DNA of 64,000 nucleotides, from positions 186,001 to 250,000 of the forward strand of contig QPGO01000091.1 in assembly GCA_008632985.1 (NCBI GenBank), written 5' to 3'. The translations under genes were made by a program, and so were the position numbers. The stretch comes from Psammoneis japonica. Its lineage: Eukaryota. Positions 7,108-61,199 of the stretch are shown in pieces. Position 1 is the first letter of the stretch, and every line of letters starts with the position of its first letter. A model generated the notes under the pieces. The model did not search any database and was not told the origin of the DNA. It saw only the letters and a list, made by a program, of their open reading frames with translations.

Positions 7108-7335
7108 TCTGTATGTATATCCTAATCAGCGGCAACAACAATGATGGATGTTGTCATTGTGAATTCTTCGCCTCTCTCGGTCAGAGGTTCAGCTCATCAC
7201 GGCGAGCGAGAAGCGTGCCGCAACATTTTGGTTCCCGCGACAAGACTGCTGAATATAACAGTTCAAAAGATATGTAGGTTTGAATTATGAATGTATGTGC
7301 AAGACAAAAGGAATATTCGATACTGATCGTAGATC

Positions 7336-9267
7336 AGATAAAATTTTAGTCTTATTGACTGTCCTAAATGACATATAAAGTATTTCGATAGAGGGCTATG
7401 TAAAGGATTTGAAAAAAGAAGAGATAACGTCTAAGATTAGTATTTTATCAGTGAGTGAATAAAACATCAGAAAATGAACGAGACGCTGATTAGGCGGTAT
7501 ATCGCGCCGGCCGGTCACCCTATTTATCCGTACCGGCTTCTTCGCGAATTCAACGGTCAGCGTTATCATAGCGGACACCAATCACCCAAAACCAATGGCG
7601 AAGCAGACTCAAAGATTAGTGACGTATGCTGCCGCCAGCAACGCGGGCACTTTTTTTTGCTTCCCGCCATCGCGCTCGGAACCTCTCTCCGCCCGCCTGT
7701 CGACGAAGGAAAAAGGCCTTGCCAAAGATGCGAGGCACCAAATCTACTGTATCACGATAGACTTTCGCGCAATGCATACTTTAAAAGAAGAACAACGAGT
7801 AAAAGGAGCAGCTGTAGAAAATACAAAATTATGAGCATGCAAATGATGTTGACACATCTGCAACACCACTCAAAAACCAAAACAGAAAAAGATGCTGTCC
7901 GTCGGTTTGTTTGCATGGCGGGCACTCCCACAGCCATGAGATCTCTTTGTTGTTGCATTTGAAGCATGCTGAGTTTCCTTGCAACCTGTGGGTCACTGGC
8001 GTGCTTTTCAATCGAAGCTTGGAACTGCCGCTGCGCAGTGCCCTTTTCCTTGAGCACCTTTTCGCCCTCATCGTTGGCCATGGAGGCAAACTTCATGTGC
8101 ACGTCTTGTGCCACCTGTCGATCATCAAGATCCCCACCTTCCTCTCTGGCTTCATTCACAATGCCCTCCATGGTGGAAGTGAGCGCGGCAAAGCACAGCT
8201 CGGCAGCTTCAAGGAGTTTCTCTGGCTCCAAAATATCCACTGGCTCGGCGCTACCACCGCTTCTCTTTCCCACAACAGACTCGCCCGTCACATTTTCATA
8301 AAGATAAAATTTTAGTCTTATTGACTGTCCTAAATGACATATAAAGTATTTCGATAGAGGGCTATGTAAAGGATTTGAAAAAAGAAGAGATAACGTCTAA
8401 GATTAGTATTTTATCAGTGAGTGAATAAAACATCAGAAAATGAACGAGACGCTGATTAGGCGGTATATCGCGCCGGCCGGTCACCCTATTTATCCGTACC
8501 GGCTTCTTCGCGAATTCAACGGTCAGCGTTATCATAGCGGACACCAATCACCCAAAACCAATGGCGAAGCAGACTCAAAGATTAGTGACGTATGCTGCCG
8601 CCAGCAACGCGGGCACTTTTTTTTGCTTCCCGCCATCGCGCTCGGAACCTCTCTCCGCCCGCCTATCGACGAAGGAAAAAGGCCTTACCAAAGATGCGAG
8701 GCACCAAATCTACTGTATCACGATAGACTTTCGCGCAATGCATACTTTAAAAGAAGAACAACGAGTAAAAGGAGTAGCTGTAGAAAATACAAAATTATAA
8801 GCATATAAATAATGTTGACATATCTGCAACACCATTCAAAAACCAAAACAGAAAAAGATACTATCCGTCGGTTTATTTACATGGCGGGCACTCCCATAGC
8901 CATGAGATCTCTTTGTTGTTGCATTTGAAGCATACTGAGTTTCCTTGCAACCTGTGGGTTACTGGCATGCTTTTCAATCGAAGCTTGGAACTGCCGTTGC
9001 GTAATGCCCTTTTCCTTGAGTACCTTTTCGCCCTCATCGTTGGCCATGGAGGCAAACTTCATGTGTACGTCTTGCGCCACCTGTCGATCATCAAGATCCC
9101 TACCTTCCTCTCTGGCTTCATTCACAATACCCTCCATGGTGGAAGTGAGCGCGGCAAAGTACAGCTCGGCAGCTTCAAGGAGTTTCTCTGGCTCCAAAAT
9201 ATCCACTGGCTCGGCGCTACCACCGCTTCTCTTTCCCACAACAGACTCGCCCGTCACATTTTCATAA
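7336..9267. repeat. Direct tandem duplication, 966-bp unit (7336-8301 and 8302-9267)
   Basis: Units align without indels, 26 substitutions by manual count, all transitions; 2-bp 'ag' microhomology at the junction. Confidence 0.98.
7911..8301 (-). pseudogene. Orphan 3' fragment of the 8877-9668 gene, hypermutated at TpA, stop codon lost
   Basis: Same peptide as the C-terminus of the intact gene with Y>C, R>G, I>T, T>A, N>D, M>V and TAA>CAA; no 5' half. Confidence 0.92.
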
Positions 9268-9668
9268 AGCGATTGGAATCGCTCGACAGCTCGTTTCACC
9301 TTGGGGTATTGTTCGGGTTGTTCCAAAAATTCAAACGTCGCTTCCTCCAAACAATCCTCATCGACATCAAACTCTTCAAAGATCGGTCCCTGCTTTTGCA
9401 ACAGATTACGTTCAAACTCCGCCTTGAGAAGCTGTCGTAGCTGCCGTTCGGGAATGGTCTGACCGGACATTTGAATTTGTTGTACCTGTTGCGACAGCTG
9501 CGCCACGACATTTTGCATTTCCAAAAAGAGACGATCAAAGATCTTGCAAACGTCCTCGGGTTGGATGCAATCGGATTCATCCAGATCGTCAATGATAGTA
9601 TCAAACTCGCGATCCGGATTCATTTTCGAATAGGCCGCAACGGCCAAGAGCGCGGCAGAACCGGCCAT
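8877..9668 (-). CDS. Uncharacterised alpha-helical protein with N-terminal hydrophobic anchor
   Basis: Open frame (ORF track 8877-9881); likely start MAGSAALLAVAAY at 9668; ends AMGVPAM-stop. Confidence 0.8.
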   Translation of the reverse strand: MAGSAALLAVAAYSKMNPDREFDTIIDDLDESDCIQPEDVCKIFDRLFLEMQNVVAQLSQQVQQIQMSGQTIPERQLRQLLKAEFERNLLQKQGPIFEEFDVDEDCLEEATFEFLEQPEQYPKVKRAVERFQSLYENVTGESVVGKRSGGSAEPVDILEPEKLLEAAELYFAALTSTMEGIVNEAREEGRDLDDRQVAQDVHMKFASMANDEGEKVLKEKGITQRQFQASIEKHASNPQVARKLSMLQMQQQRDLMAMGVPAM

Positions 9669-19684: not shown

Positions 19685-20108
19685 TTTGGCAAAACTACAG
19701 TATTATCATCGTCGATTTTCCATTGCCCGCTGATCGCCGATTGCGGTGCGTGATCGGCGGCTTCGATGCGACTGACAGACTGTGAGACGCACCGGTTCAT
19801 TCAATCATCTCAGATCGGTTACCACGATGGCATTCAGTCACAGACAAGATTACATTTTCAAAAATTTGAAAATACGTAGAACCTGCGACAGTTGTATGTA
19901 CTAAGCAAAAAAACGGTACTTTTCGCACATACAACGGTCGTTTTTTTTTTTTAACCTGCGATGTCAGGTTCGTCAACAACAACAAAGAGGAGTCCACAAA
20001 CATTGGGCCTTCGGTAAAGATTTGCATCACCCAAACGCCACCGTTCTGAGTCTTTGCAGGTTGACTTTCAAGGTTACCGATCTACAGTTTGTCTTGAATT
20101 GCAACATA

Positions 20109-24169: not shown

Positions 24170-27100
24170 TACACAACATCTCAACCAAAACACATCGAAG
24201 TCACCTTCCTACTTTCACTCAAAACGTTCGCTCAGATCGATTTGAAATTGGTCCATCGTTGCATTTTTAATTGAGGGATGGAAGCTTTGGGGGTCGCCGG
24301 GATTCCACTCCTGCCACAAATGATTGGCACTGCCTTGCATGTCAACCAAATCATTCATAATCCTCGTGTTGAGAGGTGGCATTGTGACTCATTTCTTCCC
24401 CTTTGTTCATTCAAAATGGTGGGCTTGAGCAGAGGAATCTTGAACCCCGAGATGAAACACCCAACTTCTGGCATTGCCGCCATGGACTTTGGAGTTCTCA
24501 AGAAGGGGGTCATTGTTGGTTGTCTCCCCACTTCTCCACTGAGCACAGGCCATGCCCCCAATTTCCCACTGAGGCAATGTGTCACTCTAAAAAAGCTGCT
24601 GCTGTGTTTGACATGTGGTCTCTGTGCCATCAATGGCAACAATGGGGAAAATGTTTGTCACAGTCTGCCACGCACTTTTGTGCTGCAATGTGATGACTGA
24701 ATCTTTCTGCAAAAACCAATTGGCCTCATTTCACTCACACACAGTTTGCCAATGAGGACCTTTTTCACTTTCAACACAATGCCCATTTCCTCCACAGTGT
24801 TGTCACCACCTGACACAAGAAGCATTTCTGTCATTTGTGTTGACAAAGCAGTGAAGAAGGGTCCAAAGTTCTTGATGCCACAATTTTGTGCAAGCCAAGG
24901 TTTGCTTCTTTTCACATCTTCCGAGACTTTTTGTGAGCAAATGTTTGGTTGAATCCATTCAAAAATGCTTCCATGTGAGAACACACACAAAGCATGCTTT
25001 GTGACAGACTCAAAAGCAAATTCATGCATTGGCACATCAAATTGTTTCTGTTGAAGTTGGCTGGGGTGGGGGGAAGCTGTTGGTTGCAACAAAAACAAAT
25101 CAAAACACAAAGCATGCAAATTTTATCCAACCACTTTGATCTCATCTCACAACCCCCTGGCTCTGGATCAGTGTGTGCTGCTTGCATCAATCAACATGAC
25201 ATTGATGCACAGGAGACTCTCAAAAATGCCAGATGGATGATGCACACTGGGGTTGCACATGCAGGTGATTTGTTGCAGTGCCCTCTGGTGCATTTGTGAA
25301 AAACTCTCTACAGAAATTTTCCATGTGTGGATCAAAATGGAGCAACAACTGACACCATCTGTCTGACATCATGCAAGAGGCTCTGTGGCAACCCAGGGTG
25401 TGCAAAGCATGTGCACAGTGTGGCCAACACATGGACTCACATTGGACAGCAGTTTGCACACATCAGTCTTTTTTCAGAGCCAGGTGCTTTTCACATCATT
25501 CCAGTCCCCTGCTGCTCACAGAGTCTGGTGTGCCAATTCTGTGCATTGTTTGTTCTTTTTGTGGCAGTCTGTCAGCAGCTCAGTTGTTTGTGTCACATGC
25601 AAAACCAAGTGTCAACTTTTGCCCAGTTGCATGAAAAATGTTGTGATCAAATGCTAAAACAGCATTGTTTGTGCTGGTTGTTGGCATCAGGACTCCATGG
25701 AAAACAATGTAAGAAAAATGACAAATGCCACAGATGTGCACACACACTGGGACATTGGTTTTGGATCAGGCAGTGACCCTTCTGCATGTGCATGGTTTTG
25801 TGTTCTTTGCATTGGACCTGCACCTTCCTTTTGACACTCTTTTTTTTTTCATGGCAAAATTTTTGCATGCAGGTTTCATCCTGAGCCCTTTCACCTGACT
25901 TGCTTTTGACAAATCAGTGCACAATCAACATTGCCTGCTGCTGTGGTTTTCACTCATGTCAACAGGCCCAGAAGGCAGAAGCTTCAAGAGGTAAAGTCAA
26001 CAATTGCAAGCAAAGGCCCTGGACAAAGCCAGTGTGTCAGAGATGTCAGACCTGACTGCATTGTGTTCACACATGGTCAGGCACCAACTGGCTCTCTTGG
26101 CAGGTGTTCCAAGTGTTGTCTTCTCCACAGTTGTGCACTTTGTGGGCATCAACAACTGGCACAAGAATGCTTTGGGACATGGCAGAGCTGCAACCTCAAT
26201 TGGAAAAAAAAAACAGCGGCAGCCAATTGTCTTGCTTTTGGCACCTGTGTCATTTTGAGCATGGGCAAGCATCAAGTGGTCTGACCAGCTGTTGGAAATC
26301 AGATGGGCAGCCAAAGTGATCATCGACAGCAAAAGGGAAAGGGAAGATCTTGTCATTGTTGAGGGGATTCAATGGCAAGAAAGCCATCAGCAGAGGAGGC
26401 AGAGGTGCCAAGAAACTTTGATCTTGTGCTCAAATGTGGTGTGCCTCAGTCAATGCTGGAATGGAGGAGGGGGGCAGCAGACCAGGACGAGGGTGTGAGA
26501 AGGAGGTTTGGGTGAGTTGGCATCAACAGCTGTGTGGTGCAGAGGTCATGGTGTGGTGGCAGGAGCATGTGAAGAGGGAAGAGATGCCAACACCAGCAAA
26601 AGAGGATGGGAGGTCAGAAGTTTTGCAGGTTCAAGGTGTGTGAACATTGTTGGGGGAATGACACACAGCTGACCACCAGGGGGGCCAGGGTCTGTGAAAT
26701 GAGAAAGGTGGTGCCTTGCAAAGGCTACTGGAGAGCTTGGGCTTGTGACTGCATTAGAGTGAGAAGGTGTGATCACCACAGGCATCAAGGGGGGTGGTGC
26801 ATCCACGGGGCAGGGAGAACCAACATGGCATTGATGATGAAGGTTGCAGAGGCACAGTTTGTGCTGAGCAGCAGCTGCTGGTGGGCTGGTGCAGGTGCCA
26901 GAGGCAAGGCGACAGCAATGAAAAAGCACAAGAAAGGGAGTGAAGGGGATGGCTTGCGAGCATCACTTGCCTGCATGCAACTCTGGCTGGGTTTGGCTCC
27001 TTCTAACTTTTTTCAGATGGTTCATGTCTGATCTGTTGACTTGTCTCTTAGTGGGATCAGGTCTGCAATTGATTGCCCCCCACATTGGCATGAAAAAGCA

Positions 27101-29850
27101 CCAAGTTGGTGCAACCAATGAAAAATCACTTTAATTGAGATGGCCTGGCATGAACAGGCTGCAACTGGCACAAGTCTTGACCACTGAAGCAGCAAAAGGA
27201 ATGACCACCAGCAATAGAGTGATTGCTGGCAAGGAGGATTTGAGCACCAACATGGTCAAAATGACCAAGATGGGTGGATGTTTGGTGATTTTAACAACAA
27301 CAACAACAACAACAATGCATCACAACAAGCACAACATGCCCAGCATGCAGGCAACATGCAATTTTCCCAACTCTTGTTGGAACAAGTGAAAGCTGTGAAA
27401 AAAACTTTGGTTGATGAGGTGGATTTGGCAAAAGAGGATCAAGTGCAAGTTGCTTCCAAGGTTGCCAGCACATTGAATGAAAAAGCCAGCATTTGCAAAG
27501 TTTCATTTGTGAACATTTCTCCCACGCAGGCTTTTGGGTTGGACTTCGATGAAATCAAGAAGAAAGACCCCATGGATGACTTGGCAGATGCCATGGCAAA
27601 ACACACCATGATCACAGTCTTGCCATGCACAGCCACAGCCATGACCACAAAGAATTCCCCCAAAGGATGCAGGAGCAGATTGCACTGACAACCCGCACAG
27701 CACAGATCAGTGCTGTGCCATGCACTTGAGCCAAGCTGGACATCACATGTTGGTCAAAATGGCTGGCTGATGGTGGGGCTTCCCTCCCTTGTGAACAAAT
27801 GGACATGCTGTTTGCCCAGGATGGTTTGGTGCAGGAACAGAAATGTGTTCTCCAACCAGGATGATTTTGTCTCAACAGTGTTTGGCAATCATTGCACCAG
27901 GAACTGTTGTCTTTGTGGGCATGGACGTGAAAGAAAAAGCCATTTTGCCAAGGCATTGGATCTTGCCTTTTGACAGATGCCAAAACAGATGCTCGCCATC
28001 AACAGCTGCAATGTTTTGAGCAGCAGGTCTGTTTTGCGATGGGTGATCAGCAGTGAACAGGCCAAGCGGGTTGGTCAGCAGAATGAGATGACAAGTCCTT
28101 GCTCAAAATCATCAAAACTGCTGTTGTGTGGGCACCCCGTGGGCATCACAGCACACACAGCTTCTGTTTCCTCAATCAGACATTGCTGGGGTGGTGGGAT
28201 CTGAGTGAGTTGTGAGTTGTGTTGGTTGAATGATGCATTTGGGCCTTTTGACAAACACAAATGTCGTCGCAAAAAGGTGTGGCCCGAGCATGAGCCATTT
28301 GGCTTGCTCAGTGCCACACCGCACACAGCAAATGAAGCAATGATGACACAACTTGAACATGCAAGTCTCAGAATTGAGCCCAAAAGTAAACTGACACAGC
28401 CAAATTATTGTCGATCCACCGCAATTATTTTCTCCTCTCCAGATGCCTGCACAATGTCTGAGCATTGTGCCGTGGCATCTTGCTGTGGACCGTGCACTGT
28501 GGCTCCCCCCTCTGCACCGGGGCAATGGTTTGCAGTGCACAGGCAGCAGCATCTGTGAAGGTGCATGGCCATGCATTGGCATGCTGCCAGCAAAGTTACC
28601 CAGATGCCTTCTGGTGTTGGGAGACTTGGAATGATCACAGCAAAATGATTTTTGTCATGGCAGAACCCACCATCCATCTTCAATCAAGTCCTGTTGATGG
28701 GTCCATGCCTTGTCAAATTCTGAGCCTCAAGACAGAATCAACATCAATTTTGAGAGCACCCACTTCTGTCCACTTTGCGATGAGTTTCAAGTCCATCTTC
28801 TTGGACTGGCACATGACCAACCTGACTTTCTGACTGGCCCACAATGTGCAGAACCAACCCAATGGCACATTCTCAATGGTTGGAAGAGTGCTCACAAATG
28901 ATTCCACAAAAAATGAAGTGTGGAAGGGGTGCCGAACATCACAAGGGCAATTTTGCTCAACTCTGTGATGAATGGCTCACAACACACTTGGCAAATAAAA
29001 GAGCACTGCACACCTTTGATTTTGTGATGATTGCAATGACAAGTCATGGTTCAGCACAAGAAAAAACCAGGGTGTTTTGTTTTTGCTGAGCTCAAGTGTT
29101 GATGGCAAGCTTGTGCAAGAACTCAACTTGCTGCCACTTGCCACTTTTGCATCTTTCCTTTGCATGTCACTTTCTCCAAAACTGAACAACAAATTGGAAC
29201 AGCCATGTGCAGTTTCGCAACAACCACTTGCTGTGTGAAAGGAAATGTGGTGCAAAACAACGCACTTTCTTTTTGGCTTTGCTCTGCAAGCACATGGAAC
29301 ACACCACCATTGTCAAATTTTTGTTGCCAAAAGCCACCTGAGATGTCCTTGGTGATGGGATGCTGGCAACAGGAGAGCAGAATTGTGACCCCAGTGGACA
29401 AAGAGCTGCTGACATGACTTGCCACGACCTGGCTGGCAGAGGAAATTTGTTGGGGTTTGCAGAAGAAATGGGGTGATGTCCACACTTCCAACCCCACCCA
29501 CTTTGTGTCCTGCTTTTGCTTGCTCTGGAGGAGGCTGCCATTCACGATGAGCTCTTTTGCCCCAAAGAGAGGCGCACACAGTGCTGAAGGAGTCGCTCAC
29601 TTGACCCAGACAAAAGATCATGTTGGTTGGAGACAAGTGTTCAATGGATGTTTCTCAGTCCTGTGGAATGAAGTGTGCAGAAGATGCATCTGTTGGACCA
29701 ATGTCTCTCTTCCAAATGTCAAGATGAGACCATTTGCAGACTCAACTGGGTTGCTGCTGCTGTCGGAAACCATGGTCGCTCGGTTGCGTTTGGCCGCCGC
29801 GGCCGGCAGGCAGGTCTGGAAGTTCGTCGATCGTTCGTCTCACGGCGGCT
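24170..29850. other. TpA- and CpG-depleted hypermutated island containing degenerate coding and mobile-element relics
   Basis: Only about 20 TA dinucleotides seen in ~5.6 kb, CG rare, TG/CA in excess; ORFs are Cys/His-rich and almost Tyr-free. Confidence 0.9.
25860..26310 (+). pseudogene. Hypermutated, frameshifted paralogous fragment of the 36.1-38.1 kb membrane-protein gene (includes its intron)
   Basis: Aligns with about 36140-36570, e.g. LRSYMVWRRSALLVAIPSVVFS vs LCSHMVRHQLALLAGVPSVVFS and WHKNATGY vs WHKNALGH. Confidence 0.9.
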
Positions 29851-33734: not shown

Positions 33735-35720
33735 TGGATGGTTGCATGTTGCATGCAGAGAATTTGAAATTGGTTCCTGCCCTTTATGGTAAGGGCTGCT
33801 CAAAGACGTCGTTGGCCGGTCAAACTTCACCTTTTGGATGTCTCACATGCACATGCACTTGCCGTCAGACAGACTGCACATGGATGATGACCAGACCTTC
33901 TGCTAGATGGACGAGCAGATCTCTCTGAGATCTGCCTCTCATTCTCTTCCACTGGTGCTCGTGTTGTCACAGTCCTGGCGCTTGGGGAGTCTTTCATGTC
34001 ATTGTCATCATCGCTGCCCTTCGGCATTCTGTCAGGTTGTGGCCTTGTGCTGCTTTGTGAGCCAATCGAGAAAGCCTCATCTTTGTTCCCAAAACCATTT
34101 TTTTCTTGCTTTTGCGCGGCATTTTTCATGCTTGTAGAACCATGCCAGGTTTCCAAGTGTGCATGGCAAAAAATGCTTTCACACCAAGAACAACCATGGA
34201 GTCTCTCTGAGCCTGCTCCATCCGTGCGTTGCTCCCACATCAACTGCAGAGATGTCTGCCATGAGTTCCAAGTGCACAATGCTCTGCCTTGCCTCCACAC
34301 ATCCGACCCCTCAACAGGCTGCACATGGACTCTGCACTTGATCTGGACCCCTTCTTTGAAGACCCAGAGCAGCACGCACAACCCAAGAGGGACTTTGTGG
34401 ACCTGTTTCACATGAGCATCTCATCAATCAAGCGACTCCAGCCACCTTGCACGGTGGATCCCGCGGATGTGCTGTCCATTAAGATGATTCTCAATGCAGC
34501 CCTTTTTTGCACTGTCAACAGCAATCTTTTGTGCTGCAGAGTCATTGTGAAAAAGCACACAGAAATTGTGCAGACCAGTGCCAAGAGAAACATTTTTGGC
34601 TGTCTGTCTGTCTGCCCTCAGTGAATTTTAATTCTGCAAAAAATGGACTTTGCTGCCAACTGACAAGGCGCATTTTAGAACAATGCACATTTGCAGAAAT
34701 GTGCCTGACCAGTTGGCAGCAAAGTCCATTTTTGCACAAGTTTTGAGAAGACAACAGTTTTGGTGCAAAAACATGTGGATTCTGCGGACGTCCTTGAGCA
34801 ATTTGTTGGTTTTGCATCACGGGTCATTTTTGAAAGATTCCCACTGGCACCCTGCTGGGCCTCATGCACTTTGTTTGATGCCTGAAAGTCTGTTGTCAAT
34901 GACCAAGCTGAGTCTGTGTCTGCACGAGCAATCTCTCCACACTCTCGTGCATGTCGGCGCAGCGTGCGCACATCAATCCTGATGTGAGGCCCAATTGTGG
35001 GGATTGGAAAGAGTTTTCTTGCTCTGAACATGCACCCAAACAAGCACCTGTGGCTCCATTGTTGTTGACCATGCATCCTTCGTTGCATTGCATGGACAAT
35101 TTTGTCATGGCACTCCACGCGACATTGTGTGTGGTGCTGCACAGCCAGCATGCTTGACAGCTGTTGGGTGTGATGAAGGCATTCCTGCACATGTTGCACC
35201 CAAGTGTCAACCTCAACAAGAATCTGTGCCTCTTCCAGCAAGGAATGCAACTTGCTTGTTGATTGGTGCACACAATCTCATCAGGACCCGGCACAGTTTC
35301 CCATCAGCGACTGCGCCGCTGAACGCATCTGCCAGCGCACACCATTCTGGAGGTGCCAATGTGCACATTGCATCCAGGTGGTGCACGCCACATGTGCATG
35401 ACCAAGCTCTTCTGCCTCCTCCATTGAAGAATGCACCTCCCACCTCCGTCAGTGCTCCTGATCCCATCGCGGCATCGCGCAACATGCAGCAGACGACGAT
35501 TGTCCCAGTGACGGAAAATGTGGACTCTTTCATGCTCAAAATGGATTGCCACACAAATTTGTTCCTGATGGGACTGTTGAGCAAGATGGACATCAACAAG
35601 GAGTTTGATTTTGGAAAGCTGCTTTGGCCGGACTTGTTGCAAAGCATCTTCCCGGAGGCTGACGAGCGGAGGCAGCGGCAATTTTCTCAAAGAATGCCAG
35701 ACAGCTGGTCCATGTCGCTG
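33735..35720. other. TpA-depleted hypermutated island of unidentified origin
   Basis: Very few TA in ~2 kb; reduced CG; many overlapping Tyr-free ORFs. Confidence 0.85.
34635..34736. mobile_element. About 100-bp hairpin / MITE-like element
   Basis: caaaaaatggactttgctgccaactg ... cagttggcagcaaagtccatttttg: ~25-bp near-perfect inverted repeat with further imperfect inner pairing. Confidence 0.7.
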
Positions 35721-36149
35721 CTCTCTGGTGGACTTTACACTGGAATCTCTAGAGCTGGGAGAAGTCTCTCCAGTGGAGAGTCTATTATTTCCTCCTTGCA
35801 CCAGGTGCGTAAAGGCGTTCCTGCCTCATTCGACTGACTCCGCTGCAGGCAAGAACTGCGCGTTTGTCTGGAAGATGGGAGTCCTGTCCAAGTTGAAGGC
35901 GCCTTCGTCGATCTCACGTCAGTCTCGACGTGCAACATTCAAGCCGGAATTAGCCGGAATTCCGAATGCAAGTGCTTTGATGAGGCGCGGATCTTTCGCT
36001 TACGCAGCTGCCAGAATTCGGAGCACTTTATGTTTCGAGGCACACGCAGCTTTGTGCCCTCGACGCGTGCTGTAGCACCTGCAGGACGCCTCCTCTACCT
36101 TTCAACACCTCGACATTCTTGATTCTAAGCAGATTCTTTTTCACGCAGG

Positions 36150-43269: not shown

Positions 43270-44610
43270 TACTCGCAATGCACATGCTCGCCGGAGATAA
43301 TTATTAATTACTGAATATTAATAACAAAAAAAGCAGCAGTTCACAAGCCCATTCTCCAAATGTCATTGTCACCCACGATTCGTTTCATGCAATGGTTGCT
43401 CACCACTGCGCATGTCTCAAAATGAGCTGCACAAACTGAAACAAAGCAACACAGAGCCATGACTGTTGCTGGTTGTTTCACCCCTTGTGCGGGTGGGTGG
43501 GTGAGGGGGGGGGGCAGCAAGAAAGTGCCTGTCAAAAGCCAAAAAGAGATGCTTCTCTCTTGTCAAAATGATGCAGCTGTGCTCTGGGCGCAGGGACAAA
43601 ATCCTTTGTGCCACAGCACTTTGAGGCATTTGTTTTGCAAGAGAAAAGCTTGAGCTTGTGACAGGTTTGAGCTGCGCCACAGTGGGCTACACACACACCA
43701 CACACTCAAGCAGCAGCAGCAGCGGTGCAGCAGGAGCAGCCACAAAAGAGCAGCGGCTTCTTGTTTCTGTCAAAGCTGCTCAAAAAGAAGCTGTGCAGCT
43801 GAGCTTGGAAAGAGGTGCACACAAGTGACAGGAGAACCCTTGTGCCTGCCCAAGATGTGTGTGCAGAAACATCAACAGCACACTGGGCATCATCAACAAA
43901 AGCAAGAGGATCGTCTTGGCAGAGTCACATGATGGGCCTGTTCCAGCTCCAGGTGATCTGCTTTTCATCACACGAGAGGCCAATTTTCTGTGCAGTTTGG
44001 CGCAATTGACTCCTTCAATTTTGATCGTTTCGAAAATCGAAAGGTGAGTGTGCACCCGAAAATGCACACAAAGTGCACACTTGCCCCTCGATTTGGCAAA
44101 AAACGGATTTGGAAAAAGCCAATTGCGCCAAATGCACAAATTTCCAAATGATGGGAATCGAGCCGGCGCGGAGCACCTGGAGCTGGAACAGGCCGATGAC
44201 TCTTGAGGGCTGCCAAGAAGAACCCATTGTGTGTGCCAAAACAGCAAAAACAAAAGTTTGAGCCCCCCCAGCAGAGTTTTGAAACCGCTTTTGCAACCAC
44301 AAAAGACATTGCATCTGAGTTGGTCTAAAGCAAGTGTCAACTGAGACATTTTGCAGCTCTTCTTGTTTGTTTTTTCTGGTGAGGAGCTTGCTGGTGGTTT
44401 TTGCAAGAACACAGAGGGTGTGGGCACTTCCAGGCTGGAGCACTGCTCTGTTGCTTTGCCCTGACCCTTCCATCCCCAACCTTTTAGCAGCAGTTGCTCC
44501 CAGCAAACTTTCATGAAAAGAGTTGTGGGGGCACACAGAATGAGGAGTGGAAAAACAAGCTGGAGGCCTCGAGGACGGGGCGCGGCGGGCGGGGGGCGGG
44601 GAGGCAGCTG
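43270..44610. mobile_element. TpA-depleted non-coding insert with internal inverted repeat (arms about 43908-44008 and 44120-44224)
   Basis: ggcctgttccagctccaggtg / cacctggagctggaacaggcc and gtgcagtttggcgcaattg / caattgcgccaaatgcac are reverse complements; TA nearly absent. Confidence 0.6.
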
Positions 44611-44764
44611 GGTAGCACGAACAGTCTATGACTGACAACGGCCAGGGGGCATCGTTCGTGCGAAAATTGGAAAATGAACATGGAACGACGGCTGTAAACA
44701 TATACACAGAAGAAGGAATCGATGCATGGAAAAAGGGACAACTTTAATACCATAAGCCACACAC

Positions 44765-51669: not shown

Positions 51670-53495
51670 AGAAGTGTCATGTGATTGAATCATTGAATAC
51701 ATTTTTGTTCGTCGCAGGCTTCAACGTGATGCACGCCCCTGCAAATAATGCATCGATCGTGAAAAGAAATTCTTCGACAAAGAAAATTGCCGCACGGCAA
51801 AAATGATGTTTCGATCGTGAACAGAAACTTGAAGTTCGGTGCTTTTGCTTCCACGCCACGTGATGTCTGACGAAAGCAATGATGTTTCTCAGCTTCTTTG
51901 TTGCCATTTTGCTGCTCCAGCATCTGACCAAACAAAGCCTTGATTTGAGACAAAAACAGCCACAACTGAGTGTTTCTCTTTGCACATCCCTGACATTTTG
52001 CGGACATCCAAAACACCATGGCTTTCAGCGACCATGATAGCCAACTTTTTTCAACCTCATGGAAAATTGGAGAGCATGACGAGGACCATTTCAGACAGTC
52101 TGTGTTGTCAATGGTGACAATGAAAATGCTTGTCACACAGGCTGCAGCAGCACAAGAAGAGAAGTCTGCAAGTGACAACAACTGGGTTTCCACTTCACAC
52201 TCACAGAGCCTGCGCCTCCAAAGACGAGCTCTTTTCCATCGCTGTGCATGTTTCCTCTGTGGCATTGACCGGCACAAGTGTTTTGGTCATTGTCATTGAC
52301 AAAACAGCAAAAAAGGTCTCTGTGGACACAAAACAGGCCAAAGAAGAAAAAACAGCTGGCGCGACATGACGAGCGAGGCTTGCAGCAAAAACAGCAGCAG
52401 CAGTCAAACACTTGTGCTGACACCACATTTTCTTTTAAAAACAGAGTGCAGCACCCAGCTTGGAGATTGGACACAGCACAAACTGCAGCAAATCCTTGAG
52501 CCAAAAGTTCAGCAGCCAGGAAAGCAAGTTGACCTTCCCTCTTTGCTTCCCCGCACTGAAAACAAACAAGTGGCTTTCTTTCAATTTGTTGCTCTGCCAC
52601 CTGCCATGCAAGAGATGTTGACAAGATGTGTGCATGTGCTCCTGTGGTGGGCTGCCATTGTTGCAACATGAAGAAGGGCACATTGAATGGCGCAAATTGC
52701 CAACAAACTTTCCCTTGCATCAAAACAAGTGGGGGGATCATGTGGGCGAGTGCCTGATGATTTGAGCCTGTCAGCTGTTTTTGTGCAACAACATGCACAT
52801 CAGAAGCAAGCTGATGGCAAATGAGGAGAGAGAGTTTGATCTGATCATTTTTTTTTTTATTTTTGACCTTAATCAGATGTTTTTCCTTCAAACCTTCTGT
52901 GCAAAATGCAGCAGCTGCAAGGTTGGCTTTGCAAGCACTGCCACGGGACAGAGCTGTGCAAACAAACATGTGTTTGTGGCACAAAGGTCATTGTGAGAGC
53001 CAGTGCCAGCATTCATTGTCCTGCCCCCAGCTTGTCATGATGATGCAAGAATGCTTCATTTCCAAGTGAATTTGTGGTGGAATTTGTGCATGGACGAGTG
53101 CCAGTTGCTTGTGGATGAGACCAAGGAATCGCAGCCACCTGTGACAGGCCTGTTTAAATGCAAAAATGAAGAGGAATGCAGTGTGATGCCATTTCTTGCA
53201 GATGCTGGATTGTCACAACTGCCTTTCTAATCACCCTTGTGGACATTGCGAATGACAACCAATGATGTTGTGGATTGTCTGGATTTGCTTTGGATGACAG
53301 CAACTCCATTTTCAAAACAAGTGTCCCCCACCTAAATGCCGGAATGCCATCAAATGCATTTGCTCCAGAATGTTTGGGTTGGTGCATTGAAATGAATGCC
53401 TTGTCAATTGGTCAGCGTTGGGCACATCCTTGTTGTGCTGTCTGTGATGCAGAAGGAAATGGTTGTTTCAACAAGAATGAAGAGCTGGCAAACGG
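51670..53495. other. TpA/CpG-depleted island; right part is a hypermutated copy of the EGF-gene 3' region
   Basis: About 52995-53540 aligns with 46095-46690 (tcatttccaagtgaatttg, ttgcttgtggatgaga, gatgcagaaggaaa); TA nearly absent up to about 53495. Confidence 0.88.
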
Positions 53496-53569
53496 GCTTT
53501 ACAATCGCACAGATGGATTTGACGGCGCTCCATTATAGCTTAATCTCAAGATTCGGAGTTGCATCAAAC

Positions 53570-56353: not shown

Positions 56354-59300
56354 CACTTCCGAAGACGTCCCCCAAAGTGATGCGTTGTTGCGTTTTTCGG
56401 GTCTTTGAATGTGAAGCACATGAGCCAATGTTGCATAAAAAAGCTTGGGTTGATTTTATTTAGGCGCCACCGCCCCCCATTTCTCGTCTTCCATCTTGGT
56501 CCCAACTAAAGACGAAACAAAGGCTAGAACCATAACACTAACAATGAATTTACATTTACAGGCTACTTTGATGAACAATGTTCATCATGTGGTGCTCGCC
56601 CTCGAGCAGCAACCCCCAGCAAGTTTGTTTTGGAAAGATGGAAATCCCTTGCACGGTGGCAACAGAATTTTTGAGCAAGATCCGACTGAAGATTTGGCGG
56701 CACCTGCAGTGGTGGCCAAAAAGTTGGTAAACTTGCCCAAAATGGATTTACAGGAATTGGAACACAATGTGGTGCACAATGTGGTGCAGTGGGGACGAGT
56801 GGCGTCTGTCTCGTGAGATCCTTTTCTTGAGAATCTGCTGACTTGGATTTTTTTGCGCTCGGCCCGTCAGGCAGCATCGGCGGTGGCTGCTGTGTCTCGT
56901 GGTTCATCTTGCATGGGTTTGCCACAGTTGACATAGGATTGAACCGAGCTGAACATGGGTTTCTTGTCCACACTTGTTGCACATGCATCGGTCAGGGTCA
57001 CTTGCCACTGCTGCGCCGGTTGCAGCTCTTCTTGTTTCCAGCTGCACTCTCACCCTTTCCAATTGTTCCGGGTGCACTGAAAAATGTCGCTCGCCATTAT
57101 CTTCTTTTAATTCTTCAACATTCTTGTGCACCGGATGAGGGACTCCTGCTTTCTCCGCCAGCATGTTGACGCATTGGAGCTTGCTGTGGTTGAGGAAAGT
57201 GGGAACGCCGCAAAAGGCGTGCGGAATCTTGGCACGCTCCTCAGCCGTCATTTTGTCAATTCGGAGACGCTCTCGTGTTGATGTGTTGCATTCACACGTT
57301 CCCGCAAGGCACAATGCATCCATTGGTGAGCTTCTTGAACCGGTGTTTCCGAAATGCTTGACGATGTGGTGGCATTTTTCAAGCTTCGATTCCGTGCCAG
57401 TGGTTGTCACACAACAAGTGTCGAGCTTGCACTTGGACCATTTTGAAGGCTTGACAACTCTGTACAAGTCTTCACATGGCAGCGGCTCATCAAGTCCACG
57501 AGCTGACAGTGTTGCATTTACAACCGCCGACTTCGCATCTTCGGCAAAAAGCGGCTTCCCAGAATCTGGGTCGCACCGCCCGCCCGCCTCTGCCGCTCGG
57601 GAGACGCAGAGCACTTGTGCCGATCGAACCAAGATTCAAGATTGTTGTCACGTGTTTCCAGAGGGTAAGTCCACCTTCGAATGTGCTTTTTGCAATTGTT
57701 CCACTTCTCACTGTTCTTGATGTCTTCAATTTCTTCCTTTGAGTTTTTCTTCCTGCCAAGTTTTCCGAAGATAAGAGCATCAATCACCCTCGCCTCGTCG
57801 GATTCATCGTTGTACCGCACGCAATCCTTTGACTCACGAACCGCACGACAACAGTCAATGTGAGGCCTCTCAATGTCCGAATGATCCGGTTGGTCCAGTG
57901 CCAAAGACCAAGCCTGCATGCAACATCCTGACCAAAAATTTGCTTCCAAAATTCTTCCTCATTTGGCCACGTGTCCAAGCGATGAACTTGAGGGTTGACA
58001 TTCGGATGCCTCGCAAACTGTTCCACAGCATGAGCATGGTCTTTTGTTTCCAAAGTTGGCACTGCTGCAGCTGTGCCAATTTCTCCTGTCTCTGTGGCCA
58101 TGGTGAAGAGTCCCTTTCCGTTGCCATCTTCACAATTCTTCAATTGGTCAAAAGCATGGTCGGAGGCAACACTGATGCGACAACCCACCAATTGAATTTC
58201 TCGTGCATGCCGAATGTTGTCGCTTGTGCCAGTCTCTGTAAGATTGGATTGCCTGACAGAATCATCATGTCTCTCACATTTTGTCCTGTGGGTCCATGCA
58301 ACCAATCCAATCCTCAAACACCGACAGTGCAGTCACATTGTCTCCGACTGCTTCTTTCAACAAAGAACAGTGCATCTCCTCTTTGTCAAGAAAAGTTTCA
58401 CCTCTTTGTTGATGAAGAAAAGTAGAAATCATCGCCGTTGCTGTGCTTTTTCATCGCATGGTCAATGCATCGCGACGTTGGAAGCGTTGGATGAAACAAT
58501 GGATTTGCGGCCGCATGTCGCAGGTCAACGGGACAGCTTGTTTGGAGAGGCCTCGGCAGCTGCTCAATAGCCTTGCATCATTCCCCTTGCATCTGCAACC
58601 ACACTTGTTGCACTCATGCATCATTGATGTTGCCCAATCAGCAGGTCCTGTGACGCAAAAAATTGGAGTTGGCGGATACTCCTTCTTGACATCAAACTGC
58701 TGGTGCATCATCTCACCATTGCATTCCTCGTCAATGCACTCCAAATGTGTGCTGAGGCGGTTCAATTCCCAGCGGACGATGTGAACTGCACCCCTTCAAT
58801 CTCACTGTAGAGGTTGTCAGGAGTTTTTGTTGTGTCATCACGTGGCACTGTAAATGACATGGGCACCAGGAGGGAAATGCTTCTGATGCCATTGGAGCTT
58901 CTTGGCATTGACATCACCACCCATGATCTCATTCGAGTCGGCATGAAACCGAGACAGGCACAAGTCCAGAAGACACAATGTCAAGGCCTGCACAGGTGCA
59001 GGACAAGAAATTTTCTTCTTTTTGCATGTGTCAACTCTTTTGCGAATCTCTCTCTTTGGCACTTCTCGAGAAAGAGGGTCTTCTTCAACATCAGTGGAGG
59101 AACCCATGGTGCTGTTTGATGTGACGGTGCTGACGGCATTGGTGGCAGCAGTGTTGGGCAAGTGGGTTGCTGCAGATGGCTTGTTGTTTTTTGAAGCCCT
59201 GGTGCCATTGTAGAACAGTGCCTCCATGCCTTCCTCAGTTGGGGCCTGACAACTCTGCATTTTTTGGCATTCTTTCTTGCATGCTGGCAGCGAAGCGGTG

Positions 59301-59927
59301 GACAGCCGCGTTTTGCTCGGTGCTCATGTTCTTTCCACAGATGGATTTTGGGCAGCTCGCATCATGACCCTTTTTGCAGGAAGGCCCTTGTTTGCACCTC
59401 TTGCACTCAACAACCTTTTCTTGAGTGGCGTGACTTTTTGGCAGAGTCAGAATTTGTGATTCTGCCTCCGCCGCTGGTGATGTTGTAAACCGAGGCGCAT
59501 TTTTTCCCGACAACTTAGCGATTCCAGAAAAAGCTCGCTCCTTTGCTTTTTTTGTGGCAGGCTTTGAGCCTGAGACTGAATGCCCATGGTGCTGGGAAGC
59601 TTGCGAGAATGGTGCTTCTCCATTCTGCTGCAATTCCTTCTCTCAGAACTCTCTTGTGCAGGTCGGCACTGATGATGAGTGAGATGAAAAAAGACCGGAG
59701 GAGTTTGAATTTTTTGTGGGGTGTCTTTGTCCGAGCGCCACCGCTCAGATTGCGGCGCGTCCGTCTAAGATGGATCAATCAACACGGCTGTGTCTGTGTG
59801 ACAGTGATCGTCAAACAATGATGATGTGCATTCTTTCAGAAAGCGTCAAGTGTCATGACGTGCATTCTTGAAATGAAGTGTTCTGATTGGTCCAATCTTC
59901 CATCGGCAGGGGGCTTTCAACGAAGTG
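56354..59927 (-). mobile_element. Degenerate DNA-transposon-like element with TpA-mutated DDE-type transposase-like frame
   Basis: Colinear fragments: CxxC zinc-binding region, SDHAF, ATETGEI, DTWP, RLGLWHW..RI, ESKLE..H; Tyr largely replaced by Cys/His; weak terminal inverted similarity tcacttc...ccccc / ggggg...gaagtga. Confidence 0.55.
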
Positions 59928-61199
59928 ACAGGGCACAAGCCATGGCAAGACCGTCGCGGCTCGCGGCAGGCAGGCCACCGAAACGAGACGGGATGCATGC
60001 AGCGAGCAAGTTGAGTGAGCACAGGCACACACTACACACACCAACCCCACACACACACAACACACAACACAACGTCACAATTTGGCAAACATCCTTCTTC
60101 AACTGATTGCTCCTCTGTCCACCCACCTTGTGCAAGTTCATCACACTGCATCAAAATGGATTTCGGAGAGAATTTCGCACCCATTGTGCAGGCTGGCACC
60201 TTGATGTCAACATTGCTTGCGAACAAGAGCAGCAAGAAGCCATGGTGCGAGTCAGCGACGGCCACTTCTTCAACGATCAATGGCTTTGCAAAGAAGGTGA
60301 ACTGGACAGCTGCCATGAGCTGGTTGACAAGCATCCGGTTGTCTTGCACACAGCAATGCATTGCGATGAGGCCAAAAAAAATGGCGCGGGTGGTCTTTCA
60401 TTTGTCCATGATCAACGCCGTTCCTGGGATTTCTGCACCTGCTCCACCATGCTGAGTGCGGGTCGTCGGTGCATGTTTCCATTCCCTGCCTGACAGACTT
60501 TTGTGCGTTGGACCAGATCTGTCACTGTGCACAAGAGGAACATGGAAATCTGCAGATCTGCATCATCATGGGACCCCAGCACTTCAACATTGAAACGATT
60601 GAATGACTCATCAACAACAACGAAGCGGTGCAAGCTGCTGCACAGAAACTTCACATCAAGCAGTTTGGTCATGATGATGGAAGCCAAAGTGCAAAATTCT
60701 TCCATGCAAAAGCTGTTGTGTCTTCAGGAGGAGCAATGGTGGGATCCTGTGACTGCACTGTGGCGGCTCGCTTGCATCGCTGCGAACATTCTTCTTTGCC
60801 AGCTCCTGATGACACGGACTGCGAAGGTGTCCAAACTGAGTTAAAATGTGCTTGGGACATGATCGCATCAGATGAACTCAAATTCCAAAGAAAGTGACAC
60901 AGGCCACAAAATGACTGAGTGCAGGAGACATTTTCAATCCGCACAAGAAATCCAAAGCATGGCCAAGATGGCATTGGGAACTTTGGTTCATCTGCATTTG
61001 CAGTTCCTTTGATTGGGTTGGCTTTTGTCTAAACTGTCTGCTTTGTCCCTGATTAAAAGGGTTTGAACCAGATCCAAACAAGATGATGGTGCTCTGCAGA
61101 ATTCTGCACATTGTCAGCACTGACACAAAAGCCGTGCCAAAATGTGACAAAGCAGTGAAAAAGGGTCTTGTCAATGACAACTTGGCAGAAATGGTGGCA

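What the first reader, a model, noticed from the sequence alone, without database searches (positions are those of the whole stretch)
7699..8194. Mutation spectrum is A->G at WA (TA>>AA), a clue to the enzyme
Seen: three of the four non-TpA A:T->G:C changes are at the second A of AA on one strand (catt->cact, cgtt->cgct, aat->agt), so 24 of 25 fit WA->WG. The remaining one (cat/cgt) could be CpG decay in the other copy. No TA became CG, as expected if one hit destroys the target. Established: DNA polymerase eta makes A->G errors at WA (TA preferred) in somatic hypermutation, and TadA-derived adenine deaminases prefer TA. Inference: candidate mechanisms are error-prone Pol-eta-type patch repair recruited to silenced repeats, a natural DNA adenine deaminase, or a modified A or T at TpA that miscodes.
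Basis: partly seen in the sequence, partly recalled or inferred. Interest (0 to 1): 0.75.

Follow-up and report, generated by a model that had tools for sequence, protein, structure and literature searches.

The report
TA-erasing hypermutation in a diatom duplicate
One copy of a young 966-base tandem duplication in a diatom genome has had nearly all its TA steps rewritten to TG or CA, which fits a DNA adenine-editing enzyme that prefers T-A-pyrimidine better than a sloppy repair polymerase.

Summary
The counts are right. Copy 1 (7336-8301) and copy 2 (8302-9267) differ at 26 sites, all transitions, all within 7699-8194. At 25 of them copy 1 has G:C where copy 2 has A:T, and 21 of those are at TpA (11 to TG, 10 to CA, none to CG). 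Every one of the 18 TpA in 7832-8194 is gone. 120 homologues fix the direction: copy 2 is ancestral, so this is A:T>G:C in the dead gene fragment, the reverse of fungal RIP.

TpA specificity is far beyond chance (p=1e-12). The "WA" second tier is not: AA 3/94 against CA+GA 1/128 (p=0.31), and AA 31/357 against GA 26/239 in older repeat pairs. The better-supported second rule is a pyrimidine 3' of the mutated A. It shows in strand choice, in the surviving TpA, in all 4 off-target hits and in the old pairs.

Pol eta fits poorly: no transversions, no strand bias, saturation without collateral errors. A deaminase with T-A-Y preference fits best, but a miscoding modified base at TpA is not excluded.

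The same footprint covers 28% of the window. The signature matches a 2026 preprint on Bigelowiella natans. This scan has already noted it on many other pieces of this genome.

The parts
7336..8301 (.). Copy 1 of the 966-base tandem duplication. It is the derived, partly hypermutated copy. It holds a promoterless 3' fragment of the gene plus the gene's 3' UTR and downstream DNA.
   Evidence: ungapped match to 8302-9267 with 26 differences. Both outer borders (7335/7336 and 9267/9268) are preceded by AG (read).
8302..9267 (.). Copy 2 of the duplication. It keeps the ancestral state and continues into the 5' part of the intact gene.
   Evidence: It keeps 30 TpA in the stretch where copy 1 lost 21.
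7699..8194 (.). The mutated tract in copy 1. It holds all 26 differences: 25 A:T>G:C and 1 CpG>TpG.
   Evidence: 19 of 20 CpG are unchanged and 1 of 216 G/C sites changed.
7832..8194 (.). The saturated core, where 18 of 18 TpA were converted. The TpA-free interval runs 7830-8234 (404 bases).
   Evidence: All four non-TpA A>G changes lie here.
8877..9668 (-). Intact gene: 263 codons plus the stop at 8877-8879. It encodes a conserved diatom protein of unknown function.
   Evidence: 370 relatives, best 62-65% identical, named ones from pennate diatoms. One search found no Pfam family above cut-off. In one search, 110 of 120 homologues end at the same residue.
7914..8301 (-). Truncated coding fragment in copy 1. 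It carries C, G, T, A, D and V substitutions, and the stop codon is changed to Gln (7911-7913).
24269..29849 (.). TpA desert 1: 19 TpA in 5,581 bases. The same footprint at kilobase scale.
   Evidence: two-state segmentation with parameters of my own choosing.
33791..35735 (.). TpA desert 2: 5 TpA in 1,945 bases.
43323..44612 (.). TpA desert 3: 3 TpA in 1,290 bases.
51747..53499 (.). TpA desert 4: 7 TpA in 1,753 bases. It includes a dead copy of the EGF-like gene.
56565..64000 (.). TpA desert 5: 34 TpA in 7,436 bases. It runs off the end of the window and includes a second dead copy of the EGF-like gene.

Best explanation
After a very recent 966-base tandem duplication, a locally aimed DNA mutation process acted in place on about 500 bases of the non-functional copy. 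It turned the A of TpA into G on either strand, so TA became TG or CA, until no TpA was left in a 363-base core. The intact gene copy and the identical flanks were untouched.

The chemistry most consistent with the spectrum is hydrolytic deamination of adenine to hypoxanthine in DNA, which is then read as G. The enzyme would demand a 5' T and prefer a 3' pyrimidine (5'-T-A-Y-3'), with rare off-target hits at N-A-Y. CpG decay, presumably through 5-methylcytosine, follows much more slowly. Targeting goes by region or chromatin state, not by repeat homology.

Shown: the spectrum, the direction, the saturation, the sharp limits, the 3' preference and the same footprint in five kilobase-scale deserts.

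Inferred: that a deaminase is the agent, and that silent chromatin is the address.
For: Direction. At the six amino-acid differences, copy 1's residue occurs in 0 of 120 homologues at five of them, and in 25 of 120 at the sixth (D). Copy 2's residue is the majority at five: Y 117, I 80, T 71, N 56, M 82. At the sixth it is R (3 of 120) beside K (109). 110 of 120 homologues end at copy 2's stop.

Spectrum. 25 of 26 changes are A:T>G:C, with 0 transversions and no indels. TpA 21/58 against non-TpA 4/222 per A site, p=1e-12. The + strand carries 13 A>G and 12 T>C. The order of TG and CA outcomes gives 12 runs against 11.5 expected (my hand count's list).

One hit destroys the site: 11 TG, 10 CA, 0 CG.

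Limits. 18/18 TpA in the core, 3/12 in 7699-7831, and 0/26 and 0/3 in the identical flanks.

3' pyrimidine rule.
- The mutated A, rather than its partner on the other strand, is followed by Y in 19 of 28 informative TpA: 9/13 in the young pair and 10/15 in pair B, one-sided p=0.044.
- Among TpA surviving in the deserts, YTAR is 27/68 against 293/1820 outside (p=7e-6), and RTAY is 3/68 against 524/1820 (p=7e-7).
- All 4 non-TpA hits are at A-Y: 4/70 against 0/93, p=0.03.
- In pooled older pairs, R-A-Y is 40/265 against R-A-R 17/331, p=6e-5. The reverse direction gives 23/246 against 21/328, p=0.21.

Same process at larger scale. 18,005 of 64,000 bases lie in deserts, with rho(TA) 0.057 against 0.57 and rho(CA/TG) 1.76 against 1.17. 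Live-to-dead copy comparisons give TA>TG/CA in 16/18, 16/19, 10/13 and 39/45 aligned TpA.

TpA runs ahead of CpG. In the young tract 21/30 TpA are lost against 1/20 CpG. In old copies CpG loss is 22/27, 27/33 and 19/22.

Reads. Contigs built from one sample's reads hold both states exactly: 7779-7899 (copy 1, depth 36), 8745-8859 (copy 2, depth 51) and 8866-9583 (copy 2).

Precedent. In B. natans mutation-accumulation lines, 230 of 231 mutations in the two hypermutable regions (both integrated viral DNA) were A>G or T>C, all at TpA. The authors propose an ADAT2-type deaminase (I read the abstract, Results and Discussion).
Against: No enzyme was identified. No whole genome is held, and the window encodes no deaminase among its 25 large ORFs outside the deserts.

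Because TpA is palindromic, an A-centred lesion and a T-centred lesion predict the same changes, including the flank rule (T-A-Y equals R-T-A on the other strand).

The 3' preference rests on modest p-values in the young pair. The older pairs are 70-80% identical, so ordinary divergence is mixed in, and the 'less mutated' partner of pair B lies partly in a desert itself.

The desert borders depend on segmentation parameters that I chose.

The only read set found is probably the sample the assembly came from, so it rules out a consensus error more than it gives independent support. It also contains intermediate haplotypes that I could not resolve.

The 4 off-target hits of 25 contrast with none reported at non-TpA sites in B. 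natans.

That TadA and ADAT enzymes read U-A-C in their tRNA substrate is my recollection, not a call.
Confidence: 0.55

Rival explanations
1. A base modification placed at TpA in silent DNA miscodes at replication. It could be an oxidised or otherwise modified thymine, or a modified adenine, and it would give T>C or A>G.
For: It gives the same predicted spectrum: transitions only, TpA-specific, either strand, and one hit destroys the site. The region limits would follow from where the modifying enzyme is aimed.
Against: There is no positive evidence for such a base here. Saturation of 18/18 TpA with 1 of 216 G/C sites changed needs a very efficient miscoding lesion. That hydroxymethyluracil-type bases mostly still pair with A is my recollection, not a call.
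Confidence: 0.17
2. Error-prone patch repair by a Pol-eta-type polymerase, recruited to silenced repeats, makes A>G errors at WA.
For: 24 of 25 changes are at WA. WA is a known non-AID hotspot of somatic hypermutation (PMC6423074, passages read).
Against: - 0 transversions and 0 indels among 26 changes.
- The TA:AA per-site ratio is at least 11 in the tract (21/58 against 3/94), and higher in the core, where TpA is saturated (18/18 dinucleotides) and AA is 3/63.
- AA is not above GA in the older pairs (31/357 against 26/239).
- No strand bias (13:12), whereas A/T mutation in hypermutation is strand-biased (PMC6423074).
- Repeated low-fidelity resynthesis should also hit G/C sites, yet only 1 of 216 changed.

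That Pol eta gives many transversions is my recollection, not a call.
Confidence: 0.05
3. RNA editing followed by copying back. Transcripts of the fragment are A-to-I edited at UA, and the edited RNA templates repair or conversion of the DNA.
For: The tract lies within the part of copy 1 that is homologous to the mRNA (CDS fragment plus 3' UTR), while the downstream intergenic part is untouched. A 5' U is preferred by RNA adenosine deaminases (Mettrop et al. Discussion).
Against: Both strands are hit in an interleaved order (12 runs, my hand count), which a single RNA strand cannot give. The 3' preference is for a pyrimidine, whereas ADAR2's hot spot is 5'-UAG (PMC10661471, passage). Kilobase-scale deserts with no recognisable genes show the same footprint.
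Confidence: 0.05
4. Fungal-type RIP: C>T at CpA in copy 2, with copy 1 as the unmutated original.
For: The dinucleotide pairs involved (CA/TG against TA) are the same as in RIP, and the setting is a duplication.
Against: The direction is refuted. Copy 2 carries the conserved residues and the conserved stop, and copy 1's residues occur in 0 of 120 homologues at five of six sites. Only one copy is changed, and 470 of the 966 duplicated bases are untouched in both.
Confidence: 0.01
5. Assembly or base-calling artefact. Modified DNA in one copy was misread, or two haplotypes were mis-joined.
For: Some read-derived contigs are intermediate between the two copies. One (8898-9100) has the copy 2 state at four sites and then the copy 1 state at four. 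Others read A at 7699 and at 7913. So the exact haplotypes are not settled.
Against: Contigs with k-mer depth 36-55 match copy 1 and copy 2 exactly across 9 and 7 differing sites. The same footprint exists in old, indel-bearing repeats and in 28% of the window.
Confidence: 0.04

Closest known systems
TpA-restricted hypermutation of integrated NCLDV and virophage DNA in Bigelowiella natans (Mettrop et al., bioRxiv 10.64898/2026.01.13.699255; I read the abstract, Results and Discussion)
   Same: Almost exclusively A>G and T>C, at TpA, on either strand and limited to regions. The long-term footprint is also the same: low TpA with high CpA+TpG. A deaminase is suspected in both.
   Different: - Here the organism is a diatom (stramenopile), not a chlorarachniophyte.
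- The target is a sub-kilobase fragment of a duplicated host gene, not viral DNA.
- The core is saturated (18/18), whereas the viral region there still holds 3.3% TpA.
- A 3' pyrimidine preference and a few non-TpA hits are seen.
- CpG decay accompanies the older tracts.
- The evidence here is comparative, not from mutation-accumulation lines.
Repeat-induced point mutation (RIP) of filamentous fungi
   Same: It strikes duplicated or silent DNA, uses only transitions, works on a dinucleotide target, runs to high density, and leaves the genome with skewed TA, CA and TG content.
   Different: The chemistry and direction are opposite (C>T at CpA makes TpA; here TpA is destroyed). RIP hits both copies over the duplicated length, whereas here one copy and only half of its length are hit. 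No stop codons are created by the TpA changes.
Pol eta WA signature of somatic hypermutation (phase 2)
   Same: A:T pairs mutate, and a 5' T or A neighbour is favoured.
   Different: Here there are no transversions and no strand bias, AA is not above GA, and TpA is saturated without collateral changes.
TadA/ADAT2-3 tRNA adenosine deaminases and base editors derived from them
   Same: A>I chemistry gives only A>G. As I recall it, the native substrate reads U-A-C, which matches the T-A-Y preference found here.
   Different: Natural members are known as tRNA enzymes. DNA activity is reported only for a few (amphioxus and trypanosome, as cited in Mettrop et al.). No such gene could be examined here.
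APOBEC3-type hypermutation of retroelements and viruses
   Same: An enzyme-made, context-specific, clustered transition mutagenesis used against unwanted DNA.
   Different: APOBEC3 deaminates cytosine (C>T, G>A) on single-stranded DNA and leaves strand-coordinated runs. Here adenine is hit and there are no strand runs.

Membership tests
TpA-restricted A:T>G:C hypermutation (B. natans type) | Mutations are almost only A>G and T>C | tested here: met
   25 of 26 differences, with no transversions. The direction is fixed by 120 homologues.
TpA-restricted A:T>G:C hypermutation (B. natans type) | Mutations fall on TpA, giving TpG or CpA | tested here: met
   21 of 25 are at TpA (11 TG, 10 CA), p=1e-12 against other A sites. 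The other 4 are at N-A-Y.
TpA-restricted A:T>G:C hypermutation (B. natans type) | Confined to discrete regions beside normally mutating DNA | tested here: met
   18/18 TpA changed in the core against 0/26 and 0/3 in the identical flanks and none in copy 2. Five deserts are present in the window.
TpA-restricted A:T>G:C hypermutation (B. natans type) | Long-term footprint of TpA depletion with CpA+TpG enrichment | tested here: met
   rho(TA) 0.057 against 0.57 and rho(CA/TG) 1.76 against 1.17.
TpA-restricted A:T>G:C hypermutation (B. natans type) | Targets are integrated viral or other foreign DNA | tested here: not met
   The young target is a fragment of a conserved host gene. Dead copies of a host EGF-like gene are also hit. 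0 of 91 desert ORFs match any Pfam family, so a foreign origin for the deserts is neither shown nor excluded.
TpA-restricted A:T>G:C hypermutation (B. natans type) | Arises de novo at about 1e-7 to 1e-6 per site per generation in culture | not testable with these tools
   This needs mutation-accumulation lines. The intermediate haplotypes in read contigs are only a hint of ongoing activity.
Fungal RIP | C>T at CpA (G>A at TpG), creating TpA | tested here: not met
   The direction is the reverse.
Fungal RIP | Both copies of a duplication are mutated along the duplicated length | tested here: not met
   Only copy 1 is changed, and only 496 of its 966 bases.
Pol eta (WA) mutagenesis | AA as well as TA are hot, above GA and CA | tested here: not met
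   AA 3/94 against CA+GA 1/128, p=0.31. In older pairs AA 31/357 against GA 26/239, p=0.4.
Pol eta (WA) mutagenesis | Transversions alongside transitions, and A-over-T strand bias | tested here: not met
   0 transversions of 26 and a 13:12 strand split. The strand bias of A/T mutation is from PMC6423074. The share of transversions is my recollection.
ADAR-type editing | 5' U preferred and 3' G preferred (hot spot UAG) | tested here: not met
   The 5' T is met, but the 3' neighbour of the mutated A is C 10, T 7, A 3, G 1. The UAG hot spot is from PMC10661471.
TadA/ADAT-type polynucleotide adenine deaminase | Target context U/T-A-C/Y | tested here: inconclusive
   A T-A-Y preference is seen in four partly independent ways, with p-values from 0.04 to 7e-7. 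The family's own context is recalled, not retrieved.
TadA/ADAT-type polynucleotide adenine deaminase | An extra deaminase paralogue with a chromatin-reading or DNA-targeting module is encoded in the genome | not testable with these tools
No genome is held and there is none in this window.

The most novel reading that the evidence does not exclude
Diatoms carry an active, chromatin-addressed DNA adenine editor, an 'inverse RIP'. It recognises newly silent DNA at sub-kilobase resolution, even a promoterless fragment of a host gene next to its intact twin. It erases every T-A-Y and then every remaining TpA within a short time, well before CpG decay. The intermediate haplotypes in the read contigs would mean it is still at work in the sequenced culture. 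If the B. natans process is the same, this is an ancient genome defence of the SAR lineage, and its enzyme would be a natural adenine editor of DNA.
Probability: 0.4. Interest if true: 0.88.

Novelty: new member of a known kind. Interest (0 to 1): 0.66.

Why it matters
A natural process that edits adenine in nuclear DNA, aimed at chosen regions, is known so far from one 2026 preprint on an unrelated alga. My three full-text searches for diatoms found none: diatom + hypermutation + TpA returned 0 papers. Diatom + TpA + dinucleotide + transposable returned 2, and the one I opened was unrelated; the other I saw only in the listing. RIP + diatom returned 13 (11 listed); the one I opened concerns methyltransferases, the rest I saw only in the listing.

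This young duplicate is a clean before-and-after pair. It fixes the direction, shows that one hit per TpA ends the reaction, shows that targeting is by place and not by homology, and shows that TpA loss precedes CpG loss.

The spectrum narrows the search for the enzyme to a 5'-T-A-Y-3' reader that makes only transitions. This argues against Pol eta and ADAR-like preferences.

A natural DNA adenine deaminase would interest both genome-defence research and base-editing research. The process also biases diatom genome composition and erases tyrosine and stop codons in dead genes, which matters for annotation.

Tried and rejected
- Whole genome: not held, so no genome-wide spectrum and no proteome search for deaminase or Pol eta paralogues.
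- RNA evidence: no RNA holder was listed, so nothing can be said on transcription of the tract.
- Desert content: 0 of 91 ORFs of 90 aa or more have a Pfam match at E<=1e-3.
- Closer outgroup for the synonymous and UTR sites: the metagenome scan gave 20 loci, none close (51-57% identity over most of the protein; 73-74% only over best segments). The 8967 (CAT/CGT) case therefore stays unpolarised. None of those 20 loci (about 68 kb) has a TpA-free gap over 192 bases. They are gene-dense, so this says nothing about the process in other diatoms.
- Strand-coordinated runs: 12 runs against 11.5 expected, so there are none. A left/right split (TG 10 : CA 4 up to 8933, then TG 1 : CA 6) caught my eye, but it is post hoc and I did not test it.
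- Initial RIP reading: this was my first guess, and the homologue alignment rejected it.
- Literature on the TadA 'YAC' context: the hits I opened used YAC for yeast artificial chromosomes, so the TadA context remains a recollection.
- Pair B alone for the AA question: AA>AG plus TT>CT was 27 toward the desert copy against 20 the other way, which is too noisy.
Full report
WHAT IS THERE

The finding compares the two units of a 966-base tandem duplication: copy 1 at 7336-8301 and copy 2 at 8302-9267. The alignment is ungapped. Both outer borders are preceded by AG (read).

A gene on the minus strand starts at 9668 and stops at 8877-8879. It has 263 codons. It has 370 relatives at E<=1e-3, and the best are 62-65% identical. 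The named ones come from Cylindrotheca, Nitzschia, Seminavis, Pseudo-nitzschia and other Bacillariaceae. The window is therefore from a pennate-diatom-like genome. No Pfam family passes its cut-off.

Copy 2 supplies the 3' end of this intact gene. Copy 1 is a promoterless duplicate of the last ~130 codons plus the 3' UTR and downstream DNA.

CHECKING THE OBSERVATION

The copies differ at 26 sites, all transitions, all between 7699 and 8194. The 363 bases to the left and 107 to the right are identical.

- At 25 sites copy 1 has G:C and copy 2 has A:T.
- 21 of these are at a TpA of copy 2.
- 3 are at the second A of ApA (8835, 8997, 9004).
- 1 is at CpA (8967).
- The 26th difference is a CpG>TpG change in copy 1 (8109).

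Of the 30 TpA in the tract, 11 became TG, 10 became CA, 9 stayed and none became CG. From 8798 to 9160, all 18 TpA are changed, so copy 1 has no TpA from 7830 to 8234.

Per A site, TpA is hit 21/58 times against 4/222 elsewhere (p=1e-12). In the core, 18/18 TpA are changed against 0/26 in the identical left flank (p=1e-12).

DIRECTION

My first guess was fungal-type RIP, meaning C>T at CpA in copy 2. The homologues refute it.

- At the six amino-acid differences, copy 1's residue (C, G, T, A, V) is found in 0 of 120 homologues at five of them. At the sixth, D is found in 25 of 120.
- Copy 2's residue is the majority at five sites: Y 117, I 80, T 71, N 56, M 82. At the sixth it is R, beside K in 109.
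- 110 of 120 homologues end exactly at copy 2's stop. Copy 1 reads through it as Gln.

For the synonymous and UTR sites the direction is inferred from uniformity. No close outgroup was found, so 8967 could equally be CpG decay in copy 2.

IS IT REAL DNA?

Only one DNA sample holds the stretch, and it is probably the source of the assembly. Its read-derived contigs match copy 1 exactly over 7779-7899 (9 differing sites, depth 36). They match copy 2 exactly over 8745-8859 (7 sites, depth 51) and over 8866-9583. This argues against a consensus or base-calling error.

The same contigs also show intermediate forms. One contig (8898-9100) carries the copy 2 state at four sites and then the copy 1 state at four. 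Others read A at 7699 and at 7913. With 31-letter words, such junctions must exist in reads. They may be a second allele hit less far, or ongoing mutation. I could not resolve this.

THE 'WA' CLAIM

24 of 25 changes are at WA, but the AA part is not beyond chance.

- AA 3/94 against CA+GA 1/128, p=0.31.
- If 8967 is set aside, 3/94 against 0/128, p=0.075.

For a larger sample I used the older repeats in the window:
- pair B: 52285-54728 against 61164-63993, 80% identical;
- the live EGF-like gene at 46071-46733 against its dead copy at 62257-62885;
- 36137-36572 against 25861-26310.

In each pair one partner lies in a TpA-poor block. I required conserved neighbours and counted A>G toward the TpA-poor copy. 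The results were T-A-Y 27/28, T-A-R 17/22, A-A-Y 22/141, A-A-R 9/216, G-A-Y 18/124, G-A-R 8/115 and C-A-N 6/390.

AA (31/357) is not above GA (26/239; p=0.4). Low CA>CG counts are expected anyway, because the product is a CpG that decays. ApA is not depleted in the TpA-poor blocks (rho 1.27 against 1.17), and AG/CT is unchanged.

A BETTER SECOND RULE: A 3' PYRIMIDINE

Four lines of evidence point the same way.

1. At each mutated TpA, one of two adenines was hit. Where one is followed by a pyrimidine and the other by a purine, the pyrimidine-flanked one was hit in 9/13 cases in the young pair and 10/15 in pair B. Together that is 19/28, one-sided p=0.044. In these sites the -2 and +1 positions are confounded. 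The direction of the choice, together with the survivor classes below, shows that +1 dominates.
2. Among the 68 TpA surviving in the TpA-poor blocks, YTAR (both adenines followed by a purine) is 27/68 against 293/1820 outside (p=7e-6). RTAY is 3/68 against 524/1820 (p=7e-7).
3. All four non-TpA changes in the young tract are at A followed by T or C: 4/70 against 0/93, p=0.03.
4. In the old pairs, R-A-Y is 40/265 against R-A-R 17/331 (p=6e-5). The reverse direction shows no such contrast (p=0.21).

The target therefore reads 5'-T-A-Y-3', with rare N-A-Y off-targets. Earlier notes of this scan reached the same motif on other pieces of this genome. I tested it here independently.

THE WIDER SETTING

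A two-state segmentation, with parameters of my own choosing, puts 18,005 of the 64,000 bases in five TpA deserts: 24269-29849, 33791-35735, 43323-44612, 51747-53499 and 56565-64000.

| Measure | Deserts | Rest of window |
|---|---|---|
| rho(TA) | 0.057 | 0.57 |
| rho(CG) | 0.36 | 0.98 |
| rho(CA/TG) | 1.76 | 1.17 |

Aligned TpA of the less-affected partner read TG or CA in the desert copy in 39 of 45 cases (pair B), 16/18, 16/19 and 10/13. None of 91 desert ORFs has a Pfam match, so I cannot say whether the deserts are dead mobile elements. Two of them hold dead copies of a host EGF-like gene.

In the young tract 21/30 TpA are gone but only 1/20 CpG. In the old copies CpG loss is 22/27, 27/33 and 19/22. 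The TpA process is therefore the faster and earlier one, and CpG decay is a separate, slower one.

HOW IT MOST LIKELY WORKS

The features to explain are these:
- transitions only;
- equal use of both strands without runs (13:12; 12 runs against 11.5 expected, my hand count);
- exactly one hit per TpA;
- saturation with 1 of 216 G/C sites changed;
- limits that ignore the borders of the duplication;
- a T-A-Y context.

Together they point to an enzyme that converts adenine in DNA in place and is addressed to a region rather than to repeat homology. I take hydrolytic deamination to inosine as the most likely chemistry (confidence about 0.55). That a TpA-targeted in-place hypermutation happened at all, I hold at about 0.9.

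A miscoding modified T or A at TpA predicts the same sequence changes and stays open (0.17).

Pol eta patch repair fits poorly (0.05). There are no transversions or indels, no strand bias, a TA:AA ratio of at least 11, AA not above GA, and no collateral errors despite saturation. The WA hotspot and the A/T strand bias are from passages of PMC6423074. The share of transversions made by Pol eta is my recollection.

An ADAR-like preference does not fit the 3' side, because ADAR2's hot spot is UAG (PMC10661471 passage). An edited-RNA intermediate cannot give interleaved hits on both strands.

What marks copy 1 and spares the identical copy 2 is unknown. Copy 2 is part of an intact gene and copy 1 has no promoter, so silent chromatin is the obvious, but inferred, address.

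COMPARISON WITH WHAT IS KNOWN

The signature matches Mettrop et al. (bioRxiv 10.64898/2026.01.13.699255; I read the abstract, Results and Discussion). In Bigelowiella natans mutation-accumulation lines, 230 of 231 mutations in two integrated viral regions were A>G or T>C, all at TpA. The genome also showed TpA-poor, CpA+TpG-rich clusters, and the authors named an ADAT2-type candidate. That paper mentions neither diatoms nor polymerases.

The differences here are a stramenopile host, a host-gene fragment as target, sub-kilobase resolution, saturation, a 3' pyrimidine preference and a few non-TpA hits.

My full-text searches found no report for diatoms. I opened two of the papers that turned up; they concern nucleosome positioning and DNA methyltransferases.

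This scan has already noted the same process on many other pieces of this genome. One note reports a candidate deaminase with a reader module elsewhere, which I could not check.

VERDICT

- The TpA rule is solid.
- The WA rule and the Pol eta reading are not supported.
- The enzyme clue is better stated as T-A-Y, transitions only.
- This is a new member of a kind described once, in another lineage.

Noticed in passing
window 7699, 7913 and 8898-9100 (read contigs of coded run X1): Read-derived contigs carry haplotypes intermediate between copy 1 and copy 2. One has four copy-2-state sites followed by four copy-1-state sites only 5 bases further on. Others read A at 7699 and at 7913. These may be a less-mutated second allele or ongoing mutation in the culture.
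   Followed up: partly
window 24269-29849, 33791-35735, 43323-44612, 51747-53499, 56565-64000: Five sharply bounded TpA deserts cover 28% of the window. TpA is about 10-fold depleted, CpG about 2.7-fold depleted and CA/TG 1.5-fold enriched. None of 91 ORFs inside them has a Pfam match.
   Followed up: partly
window 45964-46725 (+), 52968-53558, 62257-62885: An EGF-like gene outside the deserts has two decayed paralogous copies inside deserts. 16/18 and 16/19 of its aligned TpA read TG or CA in the dead copies, and 22/27 and 27/33 of its CpG are lost.
   Followed up: partly
window 7699-8194 against the older pairs: TpA loss runs well ahead of CpG loss. In the young tract 21/30 TpA are lost against 1/20 CpG, while old dead copies have lost most of both. 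This implies two processes with different speeds.
   Followed up: yes
window 5143-5316 and 5317-5493: An in-frame tandem repeat of about 177 bases (92% identical) lies inside the 1,536-codon intronless ORF at 2515-7125 (minus strand). That ORF has no Pfam match.
   Followed up: no
window 11394-12128 (-) and 19905-20711 (+): Two metacaspase (Peptidase_C14) ORFs lie in inverted orientation about 9 kb apart, sharing a stretch about 75-79% identical. Two PPR-repeat ORFs lie between them.
   Followed up: no
window 7334-7335 and 9266-9267: Both outer borders of the 966-base duplication are preceded by the same two bases (AG). This is a 2-base microhomology, consistent with a replication-slippage or end-joining origin.
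   Followed up: no
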